Assembly: GCA_045401115.1 (NCBI GenBank)
Contig: CP174359.1
Location: forward strand, 50,117-114,116
DNA length: 64,000 nucleotides
Origin: Candidatus Phycocordibacter aenigmaticus
GTDB taxonomy: Bacteria > Patescibacteriota > Minisyncoccia > Phycocordibacterales > Phycocordibacteraceae
Direction of reading: 5' to 3'
Notes under the pieces: model-generated
The model's input: only the letters and a program-made list of their open reading frames with translations
The model's database searches: none
What the model was told of the DNA's origin: nothing
Shown: piece by piece, positions 23,926 through 26,900 of the stretch
How the letters are laid out: the number at the start of each line of letters is the position of its first letter
How positions within the stretch are numbered: the first letter of the stretch is position 1
Program-made: the position numbers and the translations under genes

Positions 23926-26900
23926 AATTCCTCCTGGGAGTTTCGGCGAATTAGTACTCCTCCGCTAAGCACATCGCTGCGCGTACACGTAGAGCCTATC
24001 AACCTAGTCATCTCCTAGGGGCCTCAAACGATTCCTAATCTTGGAGTTGGCTTCCCACTTAGATGCTTTCAGCGGTTATCCATTCCCGACATAGCTACCC
24101 TGCCATGCTCCTGGCGGAACAACAGGTAGACCAGAGGTCAGTTCATCCCGGTCCTCTCGTACTAGGGACAAATCTCCTCAAGAATCAACGCCTATGGTAG
24201 ATAGAGACCAACCTGTCTCACGCATTTTGTTTTCTCCCATTACTGGAAGGATCGGACTGTAGCTTCATCCGTTTTAAGGGATGGTGTACGTGCAGTCTCT
24301 ACGGGCATATATAAAAACATGTTCTTATATATTTCCCTCGGTATTGCCCTCTTCCTGAAAGGAGGGTTCTACCGATATTAGTACACATTGTCTAGAAGCA
24401 TTACTACTCCTAGCCGCCGTGATGGTTGGTTATATCTTATATTGCATTAAACGAAAATGACCTCAACTGATGTCTGTTATGTTTGCGGATTCAGACGGTA
24501 CAGAAGTCTTCACAAGGAAAACTCCTGAACGGTCTGAACCCAGCTCGCGTACCTTTTTAATTGGCGAACAGCCAAACCCTTGGGACCTTCTCCAGCCCCA
24601 GGATAAGGTGAGCCGACATCGAGGTGCCGAACACTGCCGTCGCTATGGACGCTTGGGCAGTACCAGCCTGTTATCCCCGGGGTAACTTTTATCAGGTAAT
24701 CTCGGATCGCATCTAATGCGGATCGTCGGTTCACTATGCTCTGCTTTCGCATCTGTTTGACATTTACGTCTCACAGTCAAGCCAGCTTGTGCCATTACAC
24801 GACCGGCACGGTTTCCATTCGCGCCTAGCTGACCTTTGTAGGCTCCTCCGTTACTTTTTAGGAGGATAGCGCCCCACTAAAACTGCCCGTCACACACTGT
24901 CTCCTGAATGTTATTTCAAGGTTAGGAACTGCAAAGTACAAGGGTGGTATTTCACTGACGACTCCACACTTCCCAAAAGAAGTGCTTCAAAGTCTCCCAC
25001 CTATACTACGCATGTACGCCACAGCCCCAATATGAAACTGCAGTAAAGCTCCCGGGGTCTTTTCGTCTAACCATAGGTAATCGGCATCTTTACCGATATT
25101 GTATTTTCACCGAGCAGGTCCTCGAGACAGTTCTCCAGTCGTTACGCCATTCGTGCACGTCTGAACTTACCAGACAAGGAATTACGCTACCTTAGGACGA
25201 TTATAGTTATCGCCGACATTCACCAGGGCTTATACAAGTCAGCATATAAAGCAAGCTTCATACACCACCCGTATTTGACCTTCTGGCATCGGTCAGGCGT
25301 CACCCCCTATACATCCTCTTGCGAGTTCGCAGGGAGCTGTGTTTTTGATAAACAGTCGCCAGAGATTCTTTCGCTGCGGCCACTACATTGCTGCAGTGGC
25401 AGGCCTTATCCCGAAGTTACGGCCGCTTTTTTGCCGAGTTCCTTGAGGACCTCTCACTCGTTCGCCTTGGTCTTCTCGACCTGATCACCTGTGTTGGTTT
25501 GCGGTACGGATCATTACACATTAAGCTTAGAAGCTTTTCTTGGAAGCGCGCTCCACACTCTTTCCTCTAGCGAACTAGAGAATCGCCGCCCCGCTCGGAA
25601 TAATGTTACCCGGATTTTCCTGAAGTAACTTCCTCACGGCTCGGACGTAAATCCGATAATACGCAGTGTGTACAGCACTCCGTCCCTCCATCGCATGTGC
25701 AATGAGTCACGGAATATTAACCGTATGTCCATCGGCTGCGGCTTTCGCCATCACCTTAGGCCCGACTAACCCGTAGCTGATCAACAGTGCTACGGAAACC
25801 TTGATCTTTCGGCGTGCGGGGTTCTCACCCGCATTGCGGTTACTCGTGCCGGCATTCTCACTTCCAAACGCTCCACCATGGGTCACCCCTTTGGCTTCAT
25901 CGCGGATTGGAACGCTCTCCTACCACTCCATTCTGACGAATCAGAACAGAATTCTCAGTTTCGGTACTATGCTTAGCCCCGATTATCTGCGGCGCGGAAA
26001 CTCTTGGTGAGTGAGCTGTTACGCTTTCTTTGAAGGGTGGCTGCTTCTAAGCCAACCTCCTCACTGTCATAGAATTTCCACCTCCTTAAGATGCACTTAG
26101 CATAGATTTAGGGACCTTAACTTGAGATCTAGGCTCTTCCCTTCTCGACCACTGGAGCTTCGCCCCCAGAGTCTAACTGCCCGGTAATTTACTAACTGGT
26201 ATTCGGAGTTTGATAGGAATGACGAGGTTTCCCCCTATTCATCCCTGCCAGTGCTCTACCCCCAGCAGGTACACCAGACGCCAGCCCAAAAGCTGTTTCG
26301 GAGAGAACCAGCTATTACAAGATTCGATTAGCTTTTCACTCCTTACCACAAGTCATCCCAAGGCGTTATACGACCAACGGGTTCGGGCCTCCAGGTATCT
26401 TTCGATACCCTTCACCCTGCTCATGGCAAGCTCATCTTGCTTCGGGTCGTATGTATACGACTATCGCGCTATTCACACTCGGTTTCCCTACGGCTCCGGG
26501 GCTCGCCCCCTTAGCCTGGGCCATATACATACACTCGCCGGCTCATTCTTCAATAGGCACGCCGTCGAGGCTTAAGCCTCTTCGACTCCTTGTAGATGTA
26601 TGGTTTCAGGTCTATTTCACTGTCCTCTCGGACTACTTTTCACCTTTCCCTCACGGTACTAGTTCACTATCGATCTCTGAACGTATTTAGCCTTACCGGT
26701 TAGTTCCGGCAGATTCACCCAAGCTATTCGTGTCTCGGGCTACTCAAGAGCAGAAACAAAAGAGTCTAAGATATTTCGAGTACGGGACTATTACCCCCTA
26801 GGGTCTGACTTCCCAGTCAGTTCCTCTATATCTAAGATTTATAACTCCTCTTCCATAAATGGAACGTTTCTGTCTTACAACCCCAATGCATACAAGTACA

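What the first reader, a model, noticed from the sequence alone, without database searches (positions are those of the whole stretch)
24223..24528. ORF-less insertion of about 306 nt in 23S rRNA exactly at E. coli position 2593 (I-CreI site): putative minimal group I intron
Seen in sequence: the domain V sequence ...GCUGGGUUCAGACCGU is interrupted and resumes as CGUGAGACAGGUUGGUCUCUAUCUACC... By alignment to E. coli (...GAACGU2593 | C2594GUGAGACA2602G...), the break falls in the peptidyl-transferase loop. The insert follows a U and ends with G. Established knowledge: position 2593 is the insertion site of the Chlamydomonas chloroplast intron encoding I-CreI and of several bacterial and archaeal introns. 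An unspliced insert here would be incompatible with PTC function, and CPR rRNA genes frequently carry introns. The insert has no ORF on either strand, so it would be a streamlined intron without a homing endonuclease.
Basis: partly seen in the sequence, partly recalled or inferred. Interest (0 to 1): 0.7.

Follow-up and report, generated by a model that had tools for sequence, protein, structure and literature searches.

The report
ORF-less group I intron in 23S rRNA
The 306-base interruption of the 23S rRNA gene is an intact, protein-less group I (self-splicing type) intron at a well-known insertion site, one of a common family in ultra-small (CPR) bacteria, so it is largely ordinary; its family does carry a conserved extra 5' domain that base-pairs with the flanking rRNA, which I did not find described in the papers I could search.

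Summary
Observation confirmed. The 23S rRNA gene (minus strand, 27219..23932) has one 306-nt insertion at 24528..24223, exactly after E. coli U2593. It follows a U, ends in G and has no ORF longer than 29 aa.

Interpretation supported. Rfam's group I model matches at 45.5 bits (E 2e-8), below its curated cut-off of 50. A public-genome scan found over 100 L2593 introns. Seventy form a mostly CPR family ("family B") to which this one belongs, and 64 of them lack an ORF. On an unbiased alignment of 44 members, my P2-P10 structure is 92% paired (34-41% when slid), and 32 of 51 pairs change on both sides. The guide sequence UCACG-G-CGG matches both exons, with the U.G wobble at the splice site. The window copy keeps all 76 highly conserved columns.

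It differs from the classical I-CreI-type L2593 intron: no P7.1/P7.2, and about 110 nt lie between the 5' splice site and the guide sequence. That 5' domain holds a covarying helix to 5'-exon positions -14..-4 and an extension of P10.

Such introns at this site are already reported in CPR bacteria, DPANN archaea, cyanobacteria and chloroplasts. Verdict: new member of a known kind. Splicing itself is inferred, not shown.

The parts
24223..24528 (-). The whole intron, 306 nt. Intron nt n = window coordinate 24529-n. Inserted after E. coli U2593.
   Evidence: MAFFT versus E. coli rrl. Rfam LSU alignment with a ~310-nt insertion. Sequence read.
24233..24463 (-). Stretch matched by Rfam RF00028 (group I catalytic intron), model positions 1-253.
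   Evidence: 45.5 bits against a cut-off of 50. E 1.6e-10 in the local search and 2.2e-8 over the whole window.
24529..24532 (-). P1, exon strand CCGU (exon -4..-1). U2593 is the splice-site U.
   Evidence: Pairs with GCGG of the guide sequence, with U.G at the splice site.
24532..24542 (-). 5'-exon strand UGGGUUCAGAC (exon -14..-4, E. coli ~2580-2590), bound by the intron element a'.
   Evidence: 11 contiguous pairs in the window. The family helix is 92% paired with double changes at two positions. Duplex energy -18 kcal/mol.
24501..24527 (-). P-alpha, a hairpin that starts at intron nt 2 (CAGGAGUUUUC...GAAGACUUCUG).
   Evidence: Present in the MFE and centroid folds. All 11 pairs change on both sides across 35 introns.
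24486..24496 (-). a' = GUCUGAAUCCG (intron nt 33-43), the 5'-exon-binding element.
   Evidence: Exon -6 with its partner: G:C 39, A:U 10, G:U 1. Exon -8 with its partner: C:G 43, U:A 6. At least 6 and at least 4 independent switches on a rough tree.
24469..24474 (-). GACAUC (nt 55-60), a conserved motif of unknown role. It is Watson-Crick complementary to 23S GAUGUC (E. coli 2502-2507, window 24620..24615).
   Evidence: An unbiased complementarity scan covers this rRNA site in 0.45 of members against 0.11 in shuffles. The rRNA site is invariant, so no covariation is possible.
24449..24457 (-). UUUUCGUUU (nt 72-80), a motif conserved in the subfamily. It could pair with the guide sequence like a mimic of the ligated exons.
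   Evidence: RNAalifold pairs UCGUC with GGCGG but finds no covariation. The motif is present in about half of the members. Role unexplained.
24424..24429 (-). P10b strand CCAACC (nt 100-105). It pairs with 3'-exon GGUUGG (+10..+15, window 24213..24208).
   Evidence: 6 of 6 pairs in 30 of 70 members and 5 of 6 in 13 more. All variants (CCAAUC, UCAAUC, CUGAUC, UUAAUC...) keep pairing. Duplex with exon 2 is -17.9 kcal/mol.
24414..24422 (-). Internal guide sequence UCACG-G-CGG (nt 107-115). UCACG forms P10 with 3'-exon CGUGA (24222..24218). GCGG forms P1 with CCGU.
   Evidence: It is the best and the only canonical P1+P10 site in the intron (9 bp; the next best site has 5). The same motif occurs in nearly all family-B introns. 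P10 is 95% paired.
24392..24413 (-). P2, 9 bp with a GUAA tetraloop.
   Evidence: MFE fold. All 9 pairs change on both sides.
24284..24386 (-). P3 (24386..24381 with 24289..24284), enclosing P4 (24375..24370 / 24343..24338), P5 (24366..24362 / 24351..24347), P6 (24337..24335 / 24305..24303) with an AU-rich P6a, and the 5' strand of P7.
   Evidence: P3: 6 of 6 pairs with double changes, 94% paired. P4: 98.5% paired. P5: 5 of 5 pairs with double changes. P6: 100% paired. All are recovered by the MFE fold.
24293..24299 (-). P7 5' strand GAGACUG with a bulged A. This is the expected guanosine-binding helix; it forms a pseudoknot with P3.
   Evidence: Pairs with CAGUCC at 24259..24254, 99.6% paired. 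The one variable pair covaries (A:U 30, G:C 13).
24254..24283 (-). P8 hairpin (24283..24266), J8/7 AAGCUA, and the P7 3' strand (24259..24254).
   Evidence: P8: 4 of 5 pairs with double changes. J8/7 GAAG-UA-AGUCC is invariant in the family.
24234..24249 (-). P9, 6 bp with a GUAA tetraloop.
   Evidence: 98% paired, 5 of 6 pairs with double changes.
24223..24223 (-). Terminal G (omega-G), the last intron base.
   Evidence: Invariant G in all 44 aligned family members.

Best explanation
The insert is an intact group I intron without an ORF, sitting in the 23S rRNA gene of a probable CPR (Patescibacteria, Parcubacteria-like) bacterium, after E. coli U2593 in helix 93 of the peptidyl-transferase centre. 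It most likely excises by the standard two-step group I pathway. First, the guide sequence (nt 107-115, UCACG-G-CGG) pairs with the last four exon bases CCGU, forming P1 with a U.G wobble at the splice site, and a free guanosine bound in P7 attacks there. Then UCACG pairs with the first five bases of the 3' exon (P10), the terminal G306 enters the G site, and U2593 is joined to C2594. This restores helix 93. These steps are inferred from the anatomy and from established group I chemistry; none was observed here. The intron belongs to a large, mostly ORF-less, mostly CPR family. Its catalytic core is homologous to that of the classical I-CreI-type L2593 intron. It lacks P7.1/P7.2 and carries a ~110-nt 5' domain between the splice site and the guide sequence. 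In that domain, hairpin P-alpha and the element a' (nt 33-43) form a covariation-supported 10-11 bp helix with exon positions -14..-4, directly next to the short P1. CCAACC (nt 100-105) extends P10 onto exon +10..+15. My inference is that this domain acts as an exon clamp. It would hold the 5' exon after the first step, since P1 has only 4 bp here, and align both peptidyl-transferase-centre strands for ligation.
For: Site and boundaries.
Rfam group I match over the full model, E 2e-8 for the whole window, and the only such hit in the window.
Homology to many L2593 introns in public genomes; closest is L045 at 72% over 240 nt.
Core structure on a MAFFT alignment not fitted to the structure: 92% of cells paired against 34-41% when slid. 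32 of 51 pairs change on both sides, and 0 of 500 shuffles reach the observed values.
Canonical P1+P10 guide sequence at nt 107-115, shared by the family. The guide sequence tracks the exon (GCGGUC with exon GACCGU in CPR, GCGUUC with exon GAACGU in DPANN).
Invariant terminal G.
The window copy keeps 76 of 76 columns that are at least 90% conserved in 43 other members.
The MFE fold independently recovers P-alpha, P2-P6, P8 and P9, z = -4.26.
Exon/a' helix and P-alpha. At least 6 and at least 4 independent compensatory switches.
P10 extension.
ORF-less is the norm (64 of 70).
Against: The Rfam score (45.5) is below the curated gathering score (50), so a standard annotation run would not report it.
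P1 has only 4 base pairs in this copy.
The exon/a' helix and P1 cross in sequence order (a, b, a', b'). They must either form a pseudoknot or be alternative conformations; I cannot tell which. If they are alternatives, a' could restrain rather than help P1.
The P10 extension rests on one-sided variation only, because the exon is nearly invariant.
No transcript data were available, so excision, self-splicing without protein, and the clamp role are all inferred.
The host identity (CPR) is inferred from relatives only. The genome itself was not found in the collections searched.
Confidence: 0.88

Rival explanations
1. The intron is real but does not splice on its own. It would need a host or intron-family protein (a maturase-like factor or RNA chaperone), or it splices only in the context of ribosome assembly.
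For: P1 is only 4 bp and the intron has lost the peripheral P7.1/P7.2 elements that stabilise the classical L2593 core. Protein dependence is common among organellar group I introns (established knowledge, not tested here).
Against: The core is complete. It has two GNRA tetraloops (L2, L9) of the kind that compact self-splicing introns use for tertiary contacts. It also has extra exon-binding helices that could make up for the short P1. No candidate protein is encoded in or next to the intron.
Confidence: 0.15
2. The intron is retained or decayed. It would stay in the mature 23S rRNA, as reported for the L1931 intron of Simkania negevensis, or be a dead relic.
For: An unspliced bacterial 23S group I intron has been reported (Everett et al. 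1999, cited in PMC11270868). The intron has no homing endonuclease, so there is no selection for mobility.
Against: All 76 highly conserved family columns are intact. The guide sequence, U.G wobble, terminal G and P7 are canonical. The site lies inside helix 93 of the peptidyl-transferase centre, where a 306-nt insert is expected to be incompatible with function (established knowledge). Compensatory changes across the family show ongoing selection on the RNA structure.
Confidence: 0.05
3. The insert is an intervening sequence of the RNase III type. It would be cut out without religation, leaving a fragmented 23S rRNA.
For: CPR 23S genes also carry short non-intron insertions at other sites (PMC11270868). 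This same gene has a 21-bp perfect hairpin insertion in domain I.
Against: The ends of the insert do not pair with each other into a long stem. The insert has a full group I core and a guide sequence. Known IVS sites lie elsewhere in the gene.
Confidence: 0.02

Closest known systems
Classical L2593 group I introns of subgroup IA3: the Chlamydomonas chloroplast Cr.LSU intron (I-CreI), Thermosynechococcus and Synechococcus C1/C9 (Haugen 2007, PMC1995217), and the DPANN archaeal IA3.x LSU/2593 introns (Nawrocki 2018, PMC6125680). In my data this is 'family A', e.g. L072 and L086.
   Same: Identical insertion site. Homologous core sequences: P4' through P6 (CAAUACCGAGGGAA), J6/7-P7 (CCCGUAGAGACU) and J8/7-P7' (GAUGAAG-UA-AGUCC). 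P2 and P9 carry GNRA loops. When an ORF is present it is a LAGLIDADG gene in the P6 region. ORF-less copies of about 280-380 nt also exist in that family (PMC6125680).
   Different: Family A has about 65-70 nt (P7.1/P7.2) between P7 and P3', where the window intron has 3 nt. In family A the guide-sequence G sits about 10 nt from the 5' splice site and P1 is about 7 bp with no P10 in my pairing count. In the window it sits at nt 112, behind a structured 5' domain with an exon-binding helix.
Insertions at 23S position 2593 ('23IS12') in CPR bacteria (Tsurumaki et al. 2024, J Bacteriol, PMC11270868). The first report of CPR rRNA insertions, their reference 2, is cited there.
   Same: Same host group, same gene and same position. 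They were classed as group I introns with the Rfam model at an E-value threshold, often with LAGLIDADG_1 ORFs.
   Different: In the passages I read (a term search, not the whole text), that survey describes positions, ORFs and endonuclease biochemistry, not the intron RNA architecture. The ORF-less majority, the missing P7.1/P7.2 and the 5' exon-binding domain are my observations.
Compact bacterial tRNA group I introns (Azoarcus tRNA-Ile, Anabaena tRNA-Leu; subgroup IC3). This comparison comes from my own knowledge and was not tested here.
   Same: A ~200-nt core with P2-P9 only, a J6/7-P7 sequence GUAGAGACUA-like, and GNRA tetraloops on L2 and L9.
   Different: Different host gene and subgroup lineage. 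Those introns have a conventional P1 hairpin and no long 5' domain.
Unspliced L1931 intron of Simkania negevensis, and RNase III-processed 23S intervening sequences.
   Same: They are insertions in bacterial 23S rRNA genes.
   Different: See the rival explanations: the window insert keeps every feature needed for splicing and lies inside the peptidyl-transferase centre.

Membership tests
Group I intron (Rfam RF00028) | Conserved core helices P3-P9, including the P3/P7 pseudoknot | tested here: met
   51 pairs, 92% paired against 34-41% when slid, and 32 pairs with double changes. P7 is 99.6% paired and its one variable pair covaries. The MFE fold recovers the helices.
Group I intron (Rfam RF00028) | 5' splice site after a U that forms a U.G wobble with an internal guide sequence (P1) | tested here: met
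   Exon CCGU pairs with GCGG at nt 112-115, with U2593.G112. The guide sequence tracks exon differences between CPR and DPANN members.
Group I intron (Rfam RF00028) | Terminal G (omega-G), and P10 pairing of the guide sequence with the 3' exon | tested here: met
   G306 is invariant in 44 of 44 aligned introns. UCACG pairs with CGUGA, 95% paired.
Group I intron (Rfam RF00028) | Score at or above Rfam's curated gathering threshold (50 bits) | tested here: not met
   45.5 bits. Absent from the gathering-threshold scan, but E 2.2e-8 over the whole window.
Group I intron (Rfam RF00028) | Guanosine-dependent self-splicing with exon ligation | not testable with these tools
   Needs an in-vitro splicing assay or RNA data.
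Subgroup IA3 / classical L2593 (I-CreI-type) intron | Insertion after E. coli 23S position 2593 | tested here: met
Subgroup IA3 / classical L2593 (I-CreI-type) intron | P7.1/P7.2 extension between P7 and P3' | tested here: not met
   Only CAC (3 nt) separates P7 from P3' in the window, and 3-4 nt in all 44 family-B members. The gap is about 65-70 nt in L072, L111 and L046 (PMC1995217).
Subgroup IA3 / classical L2593 (I-CreI-type) intron | Best match to the IA3 subgroup covariance model (GISSD) | not tested
   Subgroup models are not available in these tools. Only shared core sequence blocks were seen.
Subgroup IA3 / classical L2593 (I-CreI-type) intron | LAGLIDADG homing endonuclease gene | tested here: not met
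   No ORF longer than 29 aa lies inside the insert. Only about 5 of 70 family-B members carry one.
CPR 'family B' L2593 introns (defined here) | Guide sequence (U/A)CACG-G-CGG placed more than 60 nt from the 5' splice site | tested here: met
   Guide-sequence G at nt 112.
CPR 'family B' L2593 introns (defined here) | P-alpha hairpin from intron nt 1-2, followed by the a' element paired to exon -13..-4 | tested here: met
CPR 'family B' L2593 introns (defined here) | Keeps the family's highly conserved positions | tested here: met
   76 of 76.
RNase III-type intervening sequence | A long stem formed by the two ends of the insert | tested here: not met
   No terminal stem in the MFE or centroid fold.

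The most novel reading that the evidence does not exclude
The CPR L2593 introns, this one included, may carry a peripheral 'exon clamp' domain that I did not find described. It is inserted where the P1 loop normally sits and base-pairs with peptidyl-transferase-centre strands on both sides of the splice site. These are 5'-exon 2580-2590 (shown by covariation), 3'-exon 2603-2608 and beyond (consistent, one-sided variation only), and possibly 2502-2507 (enrichment only). The 5'-exon helix would form a pseudoknot with a very short P1. If so, about 25-30 nt of target are recognised by RNA alone. That could explain how ORF-less copies persist and spread (reverse splicing into rRNA), or it could tie splicing to correct folding of the catalytic centre during ribosome assembly.
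Probability: 0.35. Interest if true: 0.6.

Novelty: new member of a known kind. Interest (0 to 1): 0.35.

Why it matters
For annotation: this intron scores below Rfam's gathering threshold, so routine pipelines would report an over-long 23S gene without an intron. A family-specific model would fix this for many CPR genomes.

For biology: the intron itself adds little. Group I introns at 2593 are already documented in chloroplasts, cyanobacteria, DPANN archaea and CPR bacteria. The part worth a specialist's attention is the conserved 5' domain. It contains a covarying 10-bp helix to the 5' exon placed next to a 4-bp P1, plus extended complementarity to the 3' exon. If functional, this is a compact natural example of a group I ribozyme that strengthens substrate holding through a pseudoknotted second guide sequence. 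It also gives a testable route (reverse splicing, or an assembly checkpoint) for the abundance of endonuclease-free introns in the reduced genomes of CPR bacteria.

Tried and rejected
1. ACCGUCUGAA (nt 30-39) as an alternative guide sequence. It would put U2593 opposite an A, has a C/C mismatch, and offers no P10. I reinterpreted it as the exon-binding element a'.
2. A family covariance model built without the window sequence (alignment A4). I used MAFFT-based pair counts and a conserved-column check instead.
3. Finding the source genome. The exact-protein look-up found nothing. A 21-nt exact scan of metagenome contigs found nothing.
4. A scan for further exon-binding sites with G.U pairs allowed was uninformative, because the shuffled background was too high. 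The Watson-Crick-only scan recovered the a' site and the P10b site, plus a weaker third site at 2502-2507. I report that third site only as a lead.
5. RNAalifold on the middle of the 5' domain found only UCGUC:GGCGG, without covariation. The fold of nt 44-99 stays unresolved.
6. A degenerated endonuclease gene as the origin of the 5' domain. Where ORFs exist in this family they sit after P5/P6, not in the 5' domain.
7. Literature searches for a description of such a 5' domain or extended guide sequence at this site found none. The library is limited, so this is not proof of absence.
8. Other group I introns in the window: none. The 16S gene and the single tRNA gene are uninterrupted.
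Full report
**Observation.** Rfam finds a complete bacterial 23S rRNA on the minus strand at 27219..23932, followed by 5S at 23849..23744. I fetched an E. coli rrl gene and aligned it globally to the window's 23S. The only large difference is a 306-nt insertion after E. 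coli position 2593, at window 24528..24223. The Rfam LSU alignment shows the same ~310-nt gap inside GGGUUCAGACCGU...GAGACAGGUUGGUC. In the rRNA sense the junctions read GACCGU | UCAGGAG...ACAAAAUG | CGUGAGACAGG. The insert follows U2593 and ends in G. Its boundaries cannot be slid, because the flanking bases differ. No ORF inside it exceeds 29 aa on either strand.

**What it is.** At the gathering threshold Rfam reports no intron. With E-value reporting, the group I model RF00028 matches 24463..24233(-) end to end at 45.5 bits (cut-off 50). The E-value is 1.6e-10 locally and 2.2e-8 for the whole window, and this is the only such hit in the window.

I then scanned one genome per prokaryotic species for the conserved J8/7-P7 motif followed by the 3' exon (GAAGNTANAGTC N17-47 CGTGAGACAG). 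About 104 of them show an insertion of more than 100 nt at exactly this site. They fall into two families.
- Family A has 34 loci. They include Thermosynechococcus L072, the archaeon AR20 L086, Acidimicrobiia, Saccharimonadia and various other MAGs. The guide sequence sits about 10 nt from the 5' splice site, and most members are 700-780 nt with an ORF.
- Family B has 70 loci, mostly Parcubacteria/Paceibacteria-type CPR bacteria plus a few DPANN archaea. The window intron belongs here.

The window's nearest relatives are L045 (Parcubacteria RYN_393, 72% over 240 nt), L117 (Kaiserbacteria), L105, L009 and L101. Its mature 23S is at most 87% identical to any fetched relative. The host is therefore a CPR species not among the fetched species representatives. 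That is an inference from relatives.

**Core structure.** I aligned 44 family-B introns with MAFFT, from 9 nt before the guide-sequence G to 8 nt into the 3' exon (alignment A1). On it I counted a structure that I had derived by hand from the window sequence: P10, P2, P3, P4, P5, P6, P7 (as a pseudoknot), P8 and P9.
- 92% of cells form standard pairs, against 34-41% when the 3' partners are slid by 1-3 columns.
- 32 of 51 pairs change on both sides.
- None of 500 shuffles reaches any observed measure.
- P7 is almost invariant, and its one variable pair covaries (A:U 30, G:C 13).
- P2 and P9 end in GNRA tetraloops.

The thermodynamic fold of the window intron alone recovers P-alpha, P2, P3, P4, P5, P6/P6a, P8 and P9, with z = -4.26. 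The window copy matches the majority base in all 76 columns that are at least 90% conserved among the other 43 introns. It shows no sign of decay.

**Splice-site recognition.** I searched every G in each intron for pairing to both exons. In the window the best site, and the only canonical one, is G112 within UCACG-G-CGG. GCGG pairs with exon CCGU (with U2593.G112), and UCACG pairs with 3'-exon CGUGA. That makes 9 bp; the next best site has 5. Nearly all family-B members have the same motif. Its 3' part follows the exon: GCGGUC with exon GACCGU in CPR, GCGUUC with exon GAACGU in DPANN. The last intron base is G in all 44 aligned introns. All sequence-level hallmarks of a group I intron are therefore present.

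**The unusual part: a 5' domain.** In family B the guide sequence lies 60-250 nt downstream of the 5' splice site. In the window it is at nt 112. This region is structured and conserved.

1. P-alpha. A hairpin starts at intron nt 1-2 (window nt 2-28). All 11 of its pairs change on both sides across 35 introns.
2. The a' element.
   - After a 3-4 nt linker comes a' (window GUCUGAAUCCG, nt 33-43). It is complementary to exon positions -14..-4 (UGGGUUCAGAC, E. coli ~2580-2590). This gives 11 contiguous pairs in the window and 9-12 in almost all CPR members.
   - I located a' with a pattern that allows either base at the variable positions. Exon -6 and its partner are G:C in 39, A:U in 10 and G:U in 1. 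Exon -8 and its partner are C:G in 43 and U:A in 6, with one mismatch from a DPANN sequence.
   - On the MAFFT alignment A2 the helix is 92% paired, and there are no unpaired cells at the two covarying positions.
   - On a rough neighbour-joining tree of the intron cores, these switches need at least 6 and at least 4 independent events.
   - An unbiased Watson-Crick scan of 130 nt of rRNA on each side finds this site in 95% of members, against about 15% in shuffles.
3. P10b. Just 5' of the guide sequence, CCAACC (nt 100-105) pairs with 3'-exon GGUUGG (+10..+15). Thirty of 70 members have 6 of 6 pairs and 13 more have 5 of 6. The variants seen (CCAAUC, UCAAUC, CUGAUC, UUGAUC, and UUAAUC where the exon reads GGUUAG) all keep pairing. 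Because the exon hardly varies, this evidence is weaker. Predicted duplex energies in the window are -18.0 kcal/mol (5' exon with the domain) and -17.9 kcal/mol (domain with 3' exon +1..+30).
4. Two further conserved motifs remain unexplained.
   - UUUUCGUYU (window nt 72-80) could pair with the guide sequence like a mimic of the ligated exons.
   - GACAUC (nt 55-60) is complementary to 23S 2502-2507. It is enriched 0.45 against 0.11 in shuffles, but no covariation is possible there.

**How it most likely works.** The chemistry is inferred from established group I knowledge. Guanosine bound at P7 attacks after U2593 in P1. P10 then aligns the 3' exon, G306 occupies the G site, and the exons are joined, restoring helix 93 of the peptidyl-transferase centre. 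An unspliced 306-nt insert there is expected to be incompatible with function, and this 23S is the only one in the window.

The exon/a' helix is shown to exist by covariation. Its role is my inference. It abuts a P1 of only 4 bp, so it probably keeps the 5' exon bound after the first step and presents CCGU to the guide sequence. Together with P10 and P10b the intron would then hold about 25-30 nt of flanking rRNA. In sequence order the elements run: exon strand a, P1 strand, a', guide sequence. The two helices therefore cross. They form either a pseudoknot with the exon strand continuous through both, or successive conformations. I cannot decide between these.

**Comparison with what is known.**
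- Group I introns at L2593 are known in the Chlamydomonas chloroplast (the I-CreI intron, from my own knowledge).
- They are known in thermophilic cyanobacteria. Haugen 2007 (PMC1995217) describes a short P5, a short P2 and a ~65-nt P7.1/P7.2 extension.
- They are known in DPANN archaea. Nawrocki 2018 (PMC6125680) classes them as IA3 and lists copies of 306-323 nt. CP010426.1, their IA3.1, is my L086.
- They are known in CPR bacteria. Tsurumaki 2024 (PMC11270868) lists position 2593 among the group I sites in 23S, often with LAGLIDADG_1.

The window intron shares the site and long core sequence blocks with these introns. It lacks P7.1/P7.2, having 3 nt between P7 and P3', and it lacks the endonuclease gene. 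Its guide sequence sits behind the 5' domain. Membership in 'group I intron' is met on every testable feature except Rfam's curated score. Membership in the classical IA3 architecture fails on P7.1/P7.2. A formal subgroup call needs the subgroup models, which I could not run. Within family B, 64 of 70 members lack an ORF (213-496 nt). About five carry a LAGLIDADG ORF downstream of P5/P6.

**Novelty and verdict.** The finding as stated is a new member of a known kind: an ORF-less group I intron at 2593 in a CPR 23S gene. It is real, intact and almost certainly spliced, but not surprising. I did not find the 5' exon-binding domain described in the searchable literature. It may deserve follow-up as a structural variant. 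I give it about 0.35 probability of being both functional as proposed and undescribed.

**Dead ends.**
- The exact protein and DNA look-ups for the source genome were empty.
- The complementarity scan with G.U pairs allowed was swamped by background.
- The fold of nt 44-99 remains unresolved.

Noticed in passing
window 27219..23932 (23S), 23849..23744 (5S), 13126..11669 (16S), 8705..8629 (tRNA-Ile GAT), all on the minus strand: The rRNA genes are unlinked and in an unusual order. 23S-5S comes first. About 10.6 kb of protein genes follow (FtsW/RodA-like, sugar transferase, amino-acid kinase, NUDIX). Then come 16S and, about 3 kb further on, tRNA-Ile. The 16S match spans only 1458 nt against a 1533-position model and has no intron.
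   Followed up: partly
window ~26997..26951 (minus), and smaller insertions near 26908 and 26854: 23S domain I carries extra sequence relative to E. coli: +52 nt after position 227, +32 after 270 and +26 after 292. The first folds into a perfect ~21-bp hairpin (GUCUCGGUUUCUGUACCCCG / UGGGGUAUAGGAACCGGGAU). It could be an expansion segment or an RNase III-type intervening sequence.
   Followed up: partly
window 24449..24457 and 24469..24474 (minus), inside the intron's 5' domain: Two conserved motifs have no assigned role. UUUUCGUYU can pair with the guide sequence in the same register as the ligated exons. GACAUC is Watson-Crick complementary to 23S 2502-2507 (window 24620..24615), and GAGG four bases downstream is complementary to the adjacent CCUC.
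   Followed up: partly
L025, L032, L050, L095, L090, L022, L055 (DPANN archaeal loci): By the alignment-based boundary, the archaeal inserts at this site end in ...UA rather than G before CGUGAG. CGU is repeated at both junctions, so the true boundaries are ambiguous. Their 5' domains differ from the CPR ones.
   Followed up: no
Relatives L101, L010, L043, L104, L087 and others, compared with window mature-23S nt ~2031/2032 (E. coli ~1931): BLAST matches of the window's 23S to many relatives break at this point. Those genomes apparently carry another insertion at the known L1931 intron site, which the window's gene lacks.
   Followed up: no
window 47994..48158 (minus): Weak sub-threshold Rfam matches to the His and Leu operon leader models (28-38 bits, E 0.01-0.02) lie just upstream of the ORF at 48004..47177. 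This is probably a U-rich or terminator-like region rather than a true leader.
   Followed up: no
Family A loci such as L111, L035, L040, L046, L065 (282-302 nt): The classical (P7.1/P7.2-containing) L2593 intron also exists in short ORF-less form in Actinomycetota, Eremiobacterota and unclassified bacterial MAGs. The same site is thus occupied by two architecturally different ORF-less intron types in different phyla.
   Followed up: partly
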